DNA of 40,860 bases. Source: an uncultured Verrucomicrobiota bacterium. GTDB taxonomy: Bacteria > Verrucomicrobiota > Kiritimatiellia > RFP12 > UBA1067. Below, piece by piece: positions 12,007-13,500 of the stretch; position 1 is the first letter of the stretch, and each line of letters starts with the position of its first letter. The DNA is taken from the NCBI GenBank assembly GCA_937901395.1, contig CALCDB010000187.1:1-40860 (forward strand). Reading direction: 5' to 3'. Made by a program: the position numbers and the translations under genes. A model generated the notes under the pieces. The model had not been told where the DNA came from. It worked only from the letters and a program-made list of their open reading frames with translations, and searched no databases.

Positions 12007-12426
12007 ATGTTTTGTCGTTCATGCGGAAAAGAAATCGCTGAAAATGCGGTTGCATGCATGTCATGTGGTTGTGACCCTAAAATAGGGAACAAGTTTTGCC
12101 AAAATTGTGGCGCAGAAACTAATGCAAATCAAATTGTTTGCATTAAATGCGGAGTTGCGCTCAAGAGCGCTGCTAATAAGCCTGGCGCAAAGAATCGTAC
12201 GACTGCAGGTATTTTAGCGATTCTTTTTGGCGGCTTTGGTGTTCATGAATTTTATTTAGGTAATACTCTATCGGCAGTTATTCGCCTTTGTGTAACTCTT
12301 CTTACTTGTGGGTGGGGCGGATTAATTGTTGGGATAATTAGTTTTATTGAGGGGATTATCTATCTAACTCAGTCCGATGAAGAATTTCAGCGTGTGTACG
12401 TTGATGGTAAAAAAGCATGGTTCTAA
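12007..12426 (+). CDS. Double zinc-ribbon / TM2-domain membrane protein
   Basis: MFCRSCG..ACMSCG and CQNCG..CIKCG ribbons. TM2 signature [19 protein letters not shown] followed by a second TM segment. Confidence 0.75.
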   Translation: [139 protein letters not shown]

Positions 12427-12445
12427 ATTAAAGAAAGGAAAAATT

Positions 12446-12775
12446 ATGTTTTGTGCCAAATGTGGAAATCAAATTGATGATGCGGCTGTAATATGCCCTA
12501 AGTGCGGAGTTCCTGTAACAGGGAAAAAGTCATCAGACGCAAATGTTTCCAATCACATGGTCTTAGCAGTCCTCACGACAATTTTTTGTTGCTTGATAGG
12601 CGGCATTATTGCGATTATTTATGCTTCTCAAGTCAATACGAAATTGGCGATGGGAGATATTGAAGGTGCGAAGGCAGCATCAAAGACTGCAAAGATTTGG
12701 ATTATTGTTAATATTTGCACGGGATTATTAGGCTGTCTCTTTTACATTCTTGCTGGTATTGGTGCAGTGCTTTAA
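12446..12775 (+). CDS. Zinc-ribbon / CD225 (dispanin, IFITM-like) membrane protein
   Basis: ATG 12446 with an AAAGGAAAAA Shine-Dalgarno. MFCAKCG..ICPKCG ribbon. CD225-like core [47 protein letters not shown] plus a second TM. The track start at 12377 overlaps the upstream gene. Confidence 0.7.
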   Translation: [109 protein letters not shown]

Positions 12776-12794
12776 TAGTTAGGGAGTGACCATT

Positions 12795-13151
12795 ATGTTT
12801 TGTAAACATTGCGGTGCGCAGATTTGTGATGAGGCCGTGATTTGTGTTAATTGCGGGTGCAAAGTAATTAGTCCCAAATCTGCCGCTGCAATAGATCGAA
12901 ACGATGCGGCACTTAGAATGGTAGTTCCAATTGGCTGTTCAGGATGGGCTATTGTTGCTGGATATTTAGGATTATTATCTTTGCTTCCAGTTTTTGGTGT
13001 AGCAGCGTGTGTCTTTGGCTTATTGGCGTTAAACGATATTAAGAAGCATCCTGATAAGCATGGCAAGGGCAGGGCGTGGTTCGGTATAATTATGGGTGGT
13101 ATTACTACGCCTCTGTATCTATTTATATTCATCATTGTAGGTTTTGCATAA
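12795..13151 (+). CDS. Zinc-ribbon / DUF4190-like membrane protein
   Basis: AGGGAG lies 8 nt before ATG 12795. MFCKHCG..ICVNCG ribbon. Two TM segments flank [23 protein letters not shown]. Confidence 0.65.
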   Translation: [118 protein letters not shown]

Positions 13152-13185
13152 TAAGTTACTATCTAAACCACAACTCATAATACTA

Positions 13186-13500
13186 ATGGTATTACTTATT
13201 GGTATTGTGAGTTGTGGTTTTTTATTTTTCTTTAATCCATCTGATATCAATTGGTTTCCAAAGTGTCCTTTTTATGCGTTAACTGGGTATAAATGTCCAG
13301 GGTGTGGGACGCTTCGCGGGATTCATCATTTGTTGCATTTTAGATTTGTAGATGCGTGGAAGATGAATCCATTTATGATTGTTTCCATTCCATTCTTACT
13401 TTCGTTTCTTCTATTCCCTAAAATCTGTAAAAACAAGATCGTTGGGAAATGCGTATTATGGGCGACATTATTGTATTGGTTGTTAAGAAATATCGTGTGA
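13186..13500 (+). CDS. DUF2752-like membrane protein
   Basis: CPFYALTGYKCPGCGTLRGIHHL motif after an N-terminal TM. The start is ambiguous: TTG 13144 (overlapping the upstream stop) or ATG 13186. Confidence 0.65.
   Translation: MVLLIGIVSCGFLFFFNPSDINWFPKCPFYALTGYKCPGCGTLRGIHHLLHFRFVDAWKMNPFMIVSIPFLLSFLLFPKICKNKIVGKCVLWATLLYWLLRNIV

What the first reader, a model, noticed from the sequence alone, without database searches (positions are those of the whole stretch)
12007..13500. Array of three zinc-ribbon-headed small membrane proteins with swapped membrane modules (TM2 / CD225-dispanin / DUF4190), followed by a DUF2752-like protein
Seen in sequence: three consecutive genes open with the same head, MFC-x2-CG...C-x2-CG ([63 protein letters not shown]). 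The first gene carries a second ribbon. Each head is joined to a different two-helix membrane module: TM2-like [11 protein letters not shown], CD225-like [38 protein letters not shown], and DUF4190-like [20 protein letters not shown]. The two spacers are both 19 nt, each with its own purine-rich Shine-Dalgarno. A DUF2752-like CPxxxxxGxxCPGCG membrane protein follows directly, and a DUF456-like protein precedes the array. Established knowledge: CD225 is the family of the eukaryotic IFITM antiviral membrane proteins, and the bacterial roles of all four families are essentially unknown. Inference: the shared cytoplasmic metal-binding head on interchangeable membrane tails, under one promoter (TGATATAAT at 11948), suggests one modular membrane system, for example envelope remodelling, stress response or phage exclusion. 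I know of no described function for this combination.
Basis: partly seen in the sequence, partly recalled or inferred. Interest (0 to 1): 0.7.

Follow-up and report, generated by a model that had tools for sequence, protein, structure and literature searches.

The report
Zinc-ribbon membrane proteins with DUF2752 partner
Four small membrane-protein genes of a gut-type Kiritimatiellia bacterium are a local expansion of a widespread, undescribed gene pairing in which a DUF2752 membrane protein sits next to a bacterial relative of the human IFITM/CD225 proteins, which gives a concrete way to study what those bacterial relatives do.

Summary
Window 12007-13500 holds four same-strand genes: ZnR-ZnR-TM2, ZnR-CD225, ZnR-DUF4190 and DUF2752. 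All Pfam calls are confirmed, and both spacers are 19 nt.

The comparative survey gave the main result. I anchored on DUF2752 in one genome per species and kept 79 loci from at least 12 phyla. A CD225 gene lies within 1.5 kb in 69 of them, and directly upstream on the same strand in 55. DUF4190 genes join in 15 loci and TM2 genes in 6. All three cluster near the anchor rather than further out (75x, 18x and 10x denser).

A separate set of metagenome loci, found through the ZnR-TM2 protein (the scan keyed on its zinc-ribbon head), shows ZnR-TM2 + DUF2752 pairs with no CD225. Homologues of the DUF4190 gene sit in DUF4190-CD225-DUF2752 clusters. DUF2752 is therefore the constant partner, and the headed two-helix proteins are the variable ones.

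The DUF456 gene is not co-conserved. I found no link to phages, plasmids or known defence systems. The open literature I could search never mentions DUF2752.

My best reading, which is inferred, is a heteromeric inner-membrane adaptor complex. A strong terminator-like hairpin at the 5' end of the DUF2752 gene probably limits its expression.

The parts
11943..11958 (+). Promoter-like extended -10 element AAATTTGATATAATAT (TGATATAAT at 11948-11956), about 50 nt upstream of the g1 start codon
   Evidence: Read directly. A near-identical 16-mer, AAATTTGGTATAATAT, lies at 13513-13528 just upstream of parE (family D5; promoter scan). Function is not shown.
12007..12426 (+). g1: double zinc ribbon + TM2 two-helix membrane protein (139 aa)
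   Evidence: Pfam TM2 3.9e-12; Zn_Ribbon_1 7.9e-9 in two stretches; DZR 26.2 bits. Orthologues in L012 and L015 have one ribbon, which matches the second ribbon of g1.
12427..12445 (+). 19-nt spacer with Shine-Dalgarno-like AAAGGAA
   Evidence: The spacer plus the first codons of g2 repeat the g1 leader and start (46 nt, 72% identity, family D1).
12446..12775 (+). g2: zinc ribbon + CD225/dispanin membrane protein (109 aa)
   Evidence: Pfam CD225 8.7e-23 and Zn_Ribbon_1 8.5e-7. Matches the CD225 domain of PRRT1 (PDB 9zks) at E=5e-8, ungapped, with the GD motif aligned and one Cys of the di-Cys coinciding (the pair is offset by one residue). 53 homologues, almost all with ZnR+CD225.
12776..12794 (+). 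19-nt spacer with Shine-Dalgarno-like GGGAG
12795..13151 (+). g3: zinc ribbon + DUF4190 membrane protein (118 aa)
   Evidence: Pfam DUF4190 1.1e-12; Zn_Ribbon_1 18.2 bits, below cutoff. 79 homologues, mostly ZnR+DUF4190. AF2 model has pLDDT 86.5: an N-terminal ribbon, then helices 27-43, 50-63, 65-84 and 91-117.
13144..13500 (+). g4: DUF2752 membrane protein (118 aa from TTG 13144, overlapping the g3 stop by 8 nt; or 104 aa from ATG 13186)
   Evidence: Pfam DUF2752 3.1e-20. 135 homologues, all single-domain. AF2 model has pLDDT 89.5, with three long helices and a Cys-bearing region at residues 39-75. No fold match in PDB or BFVD. The CxxCG..R motif is invariant.
13165..13236 (+). 25-bp RNA hairpin (13165-13220) followed by a U-rich run. 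It lies 14 nt after the g3 stop, inside the first ~30 codons of g4, and its stem buries ATG 13186.
   Evidence: Terminator-like hit. Inverted repeat I1, 23-nt arms, 91% complementary. MFE -33.2 kcal/mol, z = -7.1, 0 of 200 shuffles as stable. L011 and L012 have hairpins of different sequence at the same place. 10 of 89 loci have z < -3 there, against 0 of 89 in each of two control windows.

Best explanation
**What it is (shown).** The locus is a chromosomal cluster in a Kiritimatiellia bacterium. It is a local, three-fold expansion of a widespread two-gene membrane module: a small two-helix membrane protein followed by DUF2752.
- DUF2752 is the constant member. It has three membrane helices and a compact region carrying an invariant C-x9-C-x2-C-G-x2-R motif (the first Cys is replaced by Ser in cyanobacteria).
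- The variable member is usually CD225. It can also be TM2, DUF4190 or DUF4234.
- The variable member often carries a swappable N-terminal head, inferred to be cytoplasmic: a zinc ribbon, GYF_2, a Ser/Thr kinase, a proline-rich tail, or nothing.

**How it most likely works (inferred).**
- The two-helix proteins dock within the membrane onto DUF2752, forming heteromeric inner-membrane complexes. This would resemble the way the CD225 domain of eukaryotic PRRT1 docks onto partner membrane proteins.
- The CD225 protein self-associates through its conserved GD..G loop motif.
- The positive-inside rule places the Cys-bearing region of DUF2752 on the periplasmic side.
- The heads of the two-helix proteins would provide cytoplasmic protein-binding surfaces.
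- The complex would then act as a membrane-anchored adaptor or signalling scaffold, not as an enzyme pathway or a phage defence.

**In this window (inferred).** Three different headed two-helix proteins share one DUF2752. The strong hairpin at the 5' end of the DUF2752 gene keeps that common subunit at a lower level, or makes its expression depend on translation of the upstream gene.
For: **Shown**
- Domain identities.
- DUF2752-anchored survey of 79 loci from at least 12 phyla. CD225 lies within 1.5 kb in 69 loci and directly upstream on the same strand in 55. DUF4190 is present in 15 loci and TM2 in 6. Density near the anchor versus further out in the same loci is 75x, 18x and 10x.
- Reciprocal checks. 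All 10 loci fetched through homologues of g2 carry DUF2752 just downstream, three of them uncalled by the gene finder. 6 of 15 TM2-containing loci from a metagenome scan have DUF2752 next door and no CD225. 3 of 4 DUF4190-homologue contexts are DUF4190-CD225-DUF2752.
- Flanking genes differ from lineage to lineage, and no other gene recurs across phyla.
- The exact window order TM2-CD225-DUF4190-DUF2752 recurs in L012. Subsets of it recur in L011 and L013-L017.
- Genes are tightly spaced or overlap.
- A Pkinase-CD225 fusion lies directly upstream of DUF2752 in L035, and GYF_2 heads occur elsewhere.
- g2 keeps the features that define the solved CD225 fold: the GD motif aligns with PRRT1 and one Cys of the di-Cys coincides (bioRxiv 10.64898/2026.06.24.734257). 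GxxxG drives oligomerisation in IFITM3 and PRRT2 (PMC7665892).
- DUF2752 gives a confident model with no known fold and belongs to a large family of 18,552 clusters at 50% identity.
- K+R counts place the N-tail and the TM2-TM3 loop in the cytoplasm.
- Hairpin evidence.
Against: - No physical interaction was tested.
- No natural fusion of DUF2752 with a two-helix module was seen among 135 homologues or the top 150 representatives.
- Five of 79 loci have none of the three two-helix families nearby, and some TM2 and DUF4190 genes stand alone.
- The 80 surveyed loci are the ones most similar to the query and include close relatives (several Actinomadura, several Nostocales). The counts therefore overstate the number of independent events.
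- My two-helix models were seeded from the window itself.
- The DUF2752 topology rests only on charge counts. Some TM2-type DUF2752 genes seem to lack the first helix.
- Nothing indicates what the complex would sense or recruit.
Confidence: 0.5

Rival explanations
1. **Thiol or metal chemistry.** DUF2752 is a small membrane CxxC protein that acts on its partners or bridges to them. Options include a disulfide oxidoreductase, a zinc 'clasp' with the invariant di-Cys of CD225, or a bacterial counterpart of the enzymes that modify that di-Cys in eukaryotes.
For: - The CxxCG..R motif in DUF2752 is invariant, with a further Cys nine residues upstream in nearly all members.
- The di-Cys in the CD225 partners is invariant in the aligned set.
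- The conservation of the di-Cys in bacteria, where S-palmitoylation is not known, is an acknowledged puzzle (PMC3282796).
- The CxxC sits just before a helix in the model.
- The spacing C-x2-C-x3-R equals DsbB C41/C44/R48. That comparison is from my memory and was not tested.
- The only PDB profile hit is a zinc-finger knuckle, YKCPxCG, at a non-significant E=0.7.
Against: - DUF2752 also pairs with TM2 and DUF4190 proteins, which have no conserved di-Cys.
- There is no fold or profile similarity to DsbB, VKOR or thioredoxin.
- The charge-based topology puts the DUF2752 motif on the periplasmic side. The CD225 di-Cys enters the membrane from the cytoplasmic side in the PRRT1 structure.
- The first Cys is Ser in cyanobacteria.
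Confidence: 0.15
2. **Toxin and antidote.** The small two-helix proteins damage the membrane (holin-like or type-I-toxin-like), and DUF2752 is the cognate immunity or antidote protein.
For: - Small hydrophobic two-gene cassettes with tight coupling are typical of such pairs.
- TM2-domain proteins occur in several phage protein families of unknown function.
- The DUF2752 gene appears to be held at low expression by a hairpin.
Against: - The pair is chromosomal and usually appears once per surveyed locus (second DUF2752 ORFs only in L046 and L077). It is inherited with local synteny in Kiritimatiellia.
- It sits among housekeeping genes such as tilS, trp genes and parE.
- It is essentially absent from 50,697 phage records and 72,556 plasmid records.
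- The putative 'toxin' is the conserved CD225 fold, which is a benign auxiliary subunit in eukaryotes.
Confidence: 0.1
3. **Phage exclusion.** An IFITM-like defence in which the array alters the inner membrane to block phage genome entry.
For: - CD225 is the IFITM family.
- Mycobacterial CD225 proteins gave moderate influenza resistance when expressed in human cells (PMC4488726).
Against: - No PADLOC hit apart from a weak generic 2TM effector match at E=0.011.
- No defence or mobile-element genes recur next to the pair.
- The pair is conserved at housekeeping positions across phyla rather than patchily, as defence islands are.
- Most phages do not enter by membrane fusion (established knowledge).
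Confidence: 0.07
4. **No functional link.** The genes are neighbours through local duplication of a zinc-ribbon leader and through chance.
For: - The g1 leader and start region is repeated before g2 (46 nt, 72% identity), which suggests local duplication.
- PF13240 heads are common on unrelated membrane proteins. For example, loci found through the head alone often have no two-helix family nearby.
Against: The same families cluster around DUF2752 in at least 12 phyla with different flanking genes. They are 10-75x denser near the anchor than further out in the same loci.
Confidence: 0.03

Closest known systems
Eukaryotic CD225/dispanin proteins (IFITM1-3, PRRT1/SynDIG4, PRRT2, TUSC5)
   Same: - g2 scores 80.7 bits on Pfam CD225.
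- It aligns without gaps to the CD225 domain of PRRT1 in PDB 9zks at E=5e-8.
- It keeps the di-Cys in the first hydrophobic segment and the loop GD / small-xxx-small motif tied to oligomerisation (PMC7665892; bioRxiv 10.64898/2026.06.24.734257).
- Like PRRT1, it has a variable N-terminal region ahead of a small membrane module that, in PRRT1, binds partner membrane proteins.
   Different: - The head is a zinc ribbon rather than a proline-rich or endocytic-signal tail.
- The gene is tied to a DUF2752 gene. I know of no DUF2752 partner described for the eukaryotic proteins, but I did not search eukaryotic genomes.
- S-palmitoylation is not known in bacteria (PMC3282796).
- Nothing here points to an antiviral or vesicle-fusion role.
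Mycobacterial IFITM-like proteins (M. avium, M. abscessus; PMC4488726)
   Same: They are bacterial CD225 proteins. The authors state that their native function has not been studied. The actinobacterial CD225 genes in my survey have proline-rich N-termini and no ribbon.
   Different: Those proteins were tested only in human cells, and the paper does not use the words operon, adjacent or neighbour. I did not check whether those mycobacterial genes have a DUF2752 neighbour.
TM2-domain proteins (Pfam PF05154; eukaryotic TM2D1-3, from memory)
   Same: g1 passes the TM2 cutoff. The bacterial function of TM2 is unknown (PMC3581485).
   Different: Here TM2 is fused to a double zinc ribbon. In several lineages it is paired with DUF2752, a link not described in the papers I could search.
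Zinc-ribbon-headed bacterial membrane proteins such as TcaA (NCBIfam NF053815)
   Same: They share an N-terminal PF13240-type ribbon followed by a membrane segment. g2 and g3 hit only the ribbon part of the TcaA model, weakly (E=0.047 and 0.13).
   Different: TcaA is a protein of about 460 aa with a large extracellular domain. There is no similarity beyond the head.
DsbB / VKOR membrane thiol oxidoreductases
   Same: A membrane protein with a CxxC followed by Arg at +4. The DsbB spacing is recalled from memory.
   Different: Foldseek and a PDB profile search give no match. DUF2752 has three helices rather than a four-helix bundle, and no second Cys pair is conserved.

Membership tests
CD225/dispanin (PF04505), g2 | Profile score above Pfam gathering threshold | tested here: met
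   80.7 bits against a cutoff of 27.1; E=8.7e-23; residues 35-100 cover profile positions 3-68 of 68.
CD225/dispanin (PF04505), g2 | Sequence similarity to a CD225 domain with a solved structure | tested here: met
   PRRT1 in 9zks/9zkt/9zku, E=5e-8; residues 36-99 align to 222-285 without gaps.
CD225/dispanin (PF04505), g2 | Di-cysteine in the first hydrophobic segment, and a G-D / small-xxx-small motif in the loop | tested here: met
   C48, C49 and G70-D71-x-x-G74 are present. C48/C49 are invariant and G70/D71 nearly invariant in 35 DUF2752-linked CD225 proteins. The GD aligns with the GD of PRRT1; the di-Cys is offset by one residue.
CD225/dispanin (PF04505), g2 | Re-entrant first helix with cytoplasmic N-terminus and loop; S-acylation of the di-Cys | not testable with these tools
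   Needs topology mapping and acyl-exchange chemistry.
IFITM-type antiviral restriction | Blocks virus entry | not testable with these tools
   Indirect evidence only: no defence or phage context.
TM2 (PF05154), g1 | Profile score above gathering threshold | tested here: met
   46.6 bits against a cutoff of 27.9; E=3.9e-12; residues 61-113.
DUF4190 (PF13828), g3 | Profile score above gathering threshold | tested here: met
   48.0 bits against a cutoff of 35; E=1.1e-12; residues 49-109.
DUF2752 (PF10825), g4 | Profile score above gathering threshold and the conserved Cys motif | tested here: met
   72.4 bits against a cutoff of 27. C41, C51-P-G-C54-G and R58 are present. C51, C54 and G55 are invariant and R58 at least 90% conserved in 47 homologues. 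The two CxxC Cys and the Arg are invariant across CD225-type and TM2-type members.
Zn_Ribbon_1 (PF13240), heads of g1-g3 | Profile score above gathering threshold (25 bits) and four Cys as two CxxC knuckles | tested here: met
   g1 scores 35.5 bits (two copies) and g2 29.0 bits. g3 scores only 18.2 bits but has C3/C6/C17/C20 in the same spacing. Most g3 homologues carry PF13240. The AF2 head of g3 superposes on Nup153/NZF zinc fingers at 0.7 A over 24 residues, with a non-significant E-value. Metal binding was not tested.
Known anti-phage defence systems (PADLOC-DB 2.0) | Any component matches a defence-system model | tested here: not met
   No hits for DUF456 or g1-g3. g4 has one weak hit to a generic 2TM effector model, E=0.011.
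DsbB/VKOR-like thiol oxidoreductase | Fold or profile similarity to solved members | tested here: not met
   Foldseek against PDB: best E=9. Profile against PDB sequences: no such hit at E<=10.
Mobile toxin-antitoxin or phage/plasmid cargo | Presence on phages or plasmids, and a variable, mobile context | tested here: not met
   2 of 50,697 phage records, both unannotated 7-8 kb faecal contigs. One 'plasmid' hit, which is an 11.8-Mb Nonomuraea replicon. Flanks are housekeeping genes.

The most novel reading that the evidence does not exclude
DUF2752 plus a headed two-helix protein (CD225, TM2, DUF4190 or DUF4234) is a widespread, unrecognised bacterial trans-membrane signalling or adaptor device. 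A periplasm-facing CxxC region of DUF2752 would sense redox or envelope state. It would control cytoplasmic heads (zinc ribbon, GYF_2, Ser/Thr kinase) anchored by the two-helix partner. This would be the ancestral working context of the CD225 fold that animals later reused as IFITM and PRRT proteins.
Probability: 0.15. Interest if true: 0.85.

Novelty: new variant of a known kind. Interest (0 to 1): 0.6.

Why it matters
Bacterial CD225 (IFITM-like) proteins have been known since 2012. Their native function "has not been studied" (PMC4488726), and the conservation of their di-cysteine motif is an admitted puzzle (PMC3282796).

The survey here shows that these genes, when examined from the DUF2752 side, almost always travel with a DUF2752 gene. 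The same DUF2752 family also pairs with TM2 and DUF4190 proteins. Four families of unknown function therefore become one testable system with an obvious first experiment: do the proteins bind each other, and what happens when the pair is deleted?

DUF2752 is a large family (18,552 clusters at 50% identity). Its model is confident, it has no structural relative, and it does not appear in the open literature I could search.

The result may also shed light on what the CD225 fold did before animals turned it to antiviral and synaptic uses.

Tried and rejected
- **Complex modelling.** I tried to model a CD225-linker-DUF2752 chimera with a paired alignment of 35 loci.
- **First metagenome scan.** The second scan keyed on the zinc-ribbon head, so only about half of its 35 loci carry TM2.
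- **Are the three membrane modules one family?**
  - hhalign gives CD225 versus DUF4190 a probability of 46-67% (E about 4e-5). This is inconclusive for hydrophobic helical pairs.
  - TM2 is unrelated to both.
  - The AF2 model of g3 found no PRRT1 or other significant PDB match.
- **Rosetta-stone fusions of DUF2752.** None found. The longer representatives only have uninformative N-terminal extensions.
- **Other conserved neighbours.** All-against-all clustering of ORFs within 3 kb found none across phyla, only lineage-specific synteny and antisense shadow ORFs.
- **Known RNA family for the hairpin or leader.** None.
- **DUF456 as part of the system.** Rejected, because no related locus has it.
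- **Literature.** DUF2752 and PF10825 appear in 0 papers, DUF4190 in 1 irrelevant paper, and CD225 with 'zinc ribbon' in 0 papers.
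Full report
**1. What is in the window**

The window is a whole 40,860-bp contig; the library holds the window's own g3 protein on a contig of that length. Between 12007 and 13500 there are four genes on the + strand, found by reading the sequence:
- g1: 12007-12426 (139 aa)
- g2: 12446-12775 (109 aa)
- g3: 12795-13151 (118 aa)
- g4: 13144 (TTG) or 13186 (ATG) to 13500

The two spacers are both 19 nt, and each has a purine-rich stretch.

- TM2, 3.9e-12
- CD225, 8.7e-23
- DUF4190, 1.1e-12
- DUF2752, 3.1e-20
- DUF456 for the preceding gene, 1.5e-33

The PF13240 zinc ribbon passes its cutoff in g1 (two copies) and g2. In g3 it falls short (18.2 against 25 bits), although the four cysteines have the same spacing.

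Comparison with orthologues shows that the second ribbon of g1 is the ancestral one and the first is an extra copy. The g1 leader and start region is repeated in front of g2 (46 nt, 72% identity).

**2. Organism and setting**

The closest DUF2752 loci are Kiritimatiellia genomes assembled from metagenomes (67% and 55% identity). Next come uncultured rumen and gut genomes and a Lentisphaeraceae genome.

The flanking genes are housekeeping genes:
- pseudouridine synthase
- an NADH-dehydrogenase-type flavoprotein
- a glutamate-synthase-like oxidoreductase
- a Sel1-pseudopilin fusion
- a PA14 protein
- DUF456
- downstream, type IIA topoisomerase B and A subunits and a GH2 glycosidase

No mobile-element or defence genes are present.

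**3. The decisive evidence: gene neighbourhoods**

*Starting from g2.* I took homologues of g2, almost all of which have ZnR+CD225, and fetched their contigs. A DUF2752 gene followed directly in four unrelated contexts. Three further loci had a DUF2752 ORF that the public gene caller had missed (a later example).

*Starting from DUF2752.* I then reversed the question. I anchored on DUF2752 in one genome per species (375 relatives, the best 80 kept). I scored all ORFs with profiles seeded from the window's own domains. Of the 79 loci with a DUF2752 ORF:

| Family | Loci with it within 1.5 kb | Density near the anchor vs further out |
|---|---|---|
| CD225 | 69 (55 directly upstream, same strand) | 75x |
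| DUF4190 | 15 | 18x |
| TM2 | 6 | 10x |

The density comparison is an internal control, because it uses the near and far parts of the same loci.

The pair occurs in Kiritimatiellota/Lentisphaerota, Bacteroidota, Cyanobacteriota, Planctomycetota, Actinomycetota, Acidobacteriota, Chloroflexota, Armatimonadota, Verrucomicrobiota, Desulfobacterota, Cloacimonadota and Pseudomonadota.

No other gene recurs across phyla, so the module is self-contained.

*Arrangements seen.*
- The exact window order reappears in L012.
- CD225-DUF4190-DUF2752 occurs in L011, L013, L014, L016 and L017.
- TM2-CD225-DUF2752 occurs in L015.
- CD225-DUF2752-ZnR-TM2 occurs in two Bacteroidia genomes.
- ZnR-DUF4190 + ZnR-CD225 + DUF2752 occurs in Armatimonadota and Acidobacteriota genomes; a Planctomycetia and an Actinomycetes genome have the same set with fewer or no ribbon heads.

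**4. Reciprocal checks for the two minor families**

*TM2.* A metagenome scan seeded with ZnR-TM2 proteins returned 35 loci. Of the 15 that carry TM2, six have a DUF2752 gene immediately adjacent and no CD225. Those DUF2752 proteins pass the Pfam cutoff (E 1e-12 to 1e-17) and keep the C-x9-C-x2-C-G-x2-R motif.

*DUF4190.* I looked up four homologues of g3. Three sit in DUF4190-CD225-DUF2752 clusters with different flanks, and one stands alone.

*Other neighbours of DUF2752.* These include GYF_2-CD225, GYF_2-DUF4234, DUF4234, ZnR-DUF4870 and a Ser/Thr-kinase-CD225 fusion.

*Heads.* Among 75 CD225 partners, 31 have a zinc ribbon, 6 have a GYF_2-like head and 38 have none or a low-complexity tail.

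However, the constant element is DUF2752, not the ribbon. DUF456 is not part of the system, since no related locus has it.

**5. What the proteins look like**

*g2 (CD225).*
- It aligns without gaps to the CD225 domain of PRRT1 in a cryo-EM structure (E=5e-8).
- That structure shows a re-entrant first helix with the two cysteines at its apex, a cytosolic loop with a conserved Gly-Asp, and one tilted transmembrane helix. The domain docks onto other membrane proteins (bioRxiv 10.64898/2026.06.24.734257).
- g2 and its relatives keep the di-Cys and G70-D71-x-x-G74.
- The corresponding GxxxG drives oligomerisation in IFITM3 and PRRT2 (PMC7665892).

*g4 (DUF2752).*
- It gives a confident model (pLDDT 89.5). 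The model has helices at 8-29, 76-95 and 98-117, and short helices around the Cys motif.
- Nothing in PDB or in the viral structure library resembles it. No PDB sequence matches its profile.
- K+R counts over 47 homologues put the N-tail and the TM2-TM3 loop in the cytoplasm. By inference, the Cys-bearing region is on the periplasmic side.
- The family is large: 18,552 clusters at 50% identity at E<=1e-3. The best 150 are essentially all small (104-197 aa), with no fusion seen; the one long hit, P0384 (1232 aa, 17 stretches), was not examined.

*g3 (DUF4190).*
- The model shows an N-terminal ribbon, a linker helix and a helical membrane pair. It has no significant structural match.
- Whether DUF4190 is a distant relative of CD225 stays open (hhalign probability 46-67%).
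- TM2 is unrelated to both.

**6. Expression signals**

- TGATATAAT lies at 11948. The wider 16-mer AAATTTGATATAATAT recurs as AAATTTGGTATAATAT just upstream of parE. This supports both sites as promoters and suggests that the array and parE are separate units.
- A 25-bp hairpin (13165-13220; -33 kcal/mol; z = -7.1) followed by a U-run starts 14 nt after the g3 stop and covers codons 8-26 of g4.
- L011 and L012 have hairpins of different sequence at the same place.
- A structured window at the DUF2752 5' end (z < -3) occurs in 10 of 89 loci, against 0 of 89 in each of two control windows.
- My inference is that this acts as a partial terminator or a translational brake. It would keep the shared DUF2752 subunit low, or tie its synthesis to translation of the upstream gene.
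- No Rfam family matches the region.

**7. Mechanism**

*Shown.* There is a conserved, tightly linked, chromosomal module made of DUF2752 plus a two-helix protein with swappable membrane modules and heads.

*Inferred.*
- The proteins form heteromeric inner-membrane complexes.
- DUF2752 provides the common, periplasm-facing subunit.
- The two-helix proteins provide cytoplasmic heads.
- Together they make an adaptor or signalling scaffold. The kinase-CD225 fusion fits a signalling reading.

I put this at about 0.5.

*Rivals.*
- Thiol or metal chemistry between the DUF2752 CxxC and the CD225 di-Cys is attractive, because the bacterial di-Cys is an acknowledged puzzle (PMC3282796). It is weakened because TM2 and DUF4190 partners lack the di-Cys, and because the two motifs appear to face opposite sides of the membrane.
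- A toxin-antidote pair and a phage-exclusion system both fit poorly. The pair is absent from phages and plasmids, has no PADLOC match and sits among housekeeping genes.

**8. Novelty and caveats**

The four families and the ZnR fusions are already in Pfam. The linkage to DUF2752 is not in any paper I could search: 0 hits for DUF2752 or PF10825. The paper on mycobacterial IFITMs does not use the words operon, adjacent or neighbour.

Caveats:
- The 80 loci are the closest relatives of the query and include clusters of related genomes.
- My two-helix profiles were seeded from the window.
- ORFs were called naively.
- No interaction, topology or phenotype was tested.

Noticed in passing
window 13165-13236; L011 6000-6027; L012 5984-6018: A strong hairpin (25 bp, z = -7.1) plus a U-run lies at the very 5' end of the DUF2752 gene. 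Two relatives have hairpins of different sequence at the same place. 10 of 89 loci are structured there (z < -3), against 0 of 89 in each of two control windows. It may be a partial terminator or a translational brake that sets subunit ratios.
   Followed up: partly
window 11943-11958 and 13513-13528: Near-identical 16-mers, AAATTTG(A/G)TATAATAT, lie upstream of the array and of parE. They are likely extended -10 promoters of this organism.
   Followed up: partly
window 9913-13500: This block has low GC (GC3 0.29-0.46), against 0.58-0.66 in the flanking housekeeping genes. It covers the Sel1-pseudopilin, PA14, DUF456 and array genes. The array is also lower in GC than its flanks in L011, L012 and L016, but not in other phyla. 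It could be an old acquisition or a codon-usage class; this is undecided.
   Followed up: partly
L094, L098, L099, L102, L116 (and L093): ZnR-TM2 genes lie directly next to a divergent DUF2752 gene, with no CD225 present. This appears to be a second, TM2-specific flavour of the pairing.
   Followed up: partly
L035 4738-5889: A Ser/Thr protein kinase fused to a C-terminal CD225 domain lies directly upstream of DUF2752 in a Cloacimonadota genome.
   Followed up: no
L046, L059, L061, L065, L074, L079: In Streptosporangiales and related actinomycete genomes the DUF2752 gene sits beside ORFs that look like tryptophan-operon genes (trpC, trpB, trpA; read from the sequences, not checked with a profile). 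In L059, L061 and L065 a DUF4190 gene, not CD225, is its upstream partner; L046 also has CD225, and L074 and L079 have none of the three partner families within 1.5 kb.
   Followed up: no
L007 548-916; L008 5565-5921; L128 3756-4196: DUF2752 genes were missed by the public gene calls, and in L008 a reverse-strand ORF was called instead. Database-based neighbourhood counts would therefore underestimate the pairing.
   Followed up: yes
L033 3772-5567: Four CD225 genes in tandem, with different heads, lie upstream of one DUF2752 gene. This resembles the window's layout of several clients sharing one partner.
   Followed up: no
window 12007-12090: The first zinc ribbon of g1 is an extra copy that the single-ribbon orthologues in L012 and L015 lack. 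The g1 leader and start region is repeated before g2 (46 nt, 72% identity).
   Followed up: partly
window 9985-10506 and 10591-11184: A Sel1 repeat fused to a type II secretion pseudopilin (T2SSG) domain, followed by a small PA14-domain protein. An intrinsic-terminator-like hairpin lies at 11223-11252, after the PA14 gene.
   Followed up: no
phage records MT839860.1 and MT836841.1: These are the only two 'phage' records with DUF2752 (MT839860 also has CD225). Both are unannotated 7-8 kb faecal contigs labelled 'Bacteriophage sp.', and they may be misclassified bacterial fragments.
   Followed up: no
window 40728-40801: One tRNA gene. It is the only Rfam match above threshold in the window.
   Followed up: no
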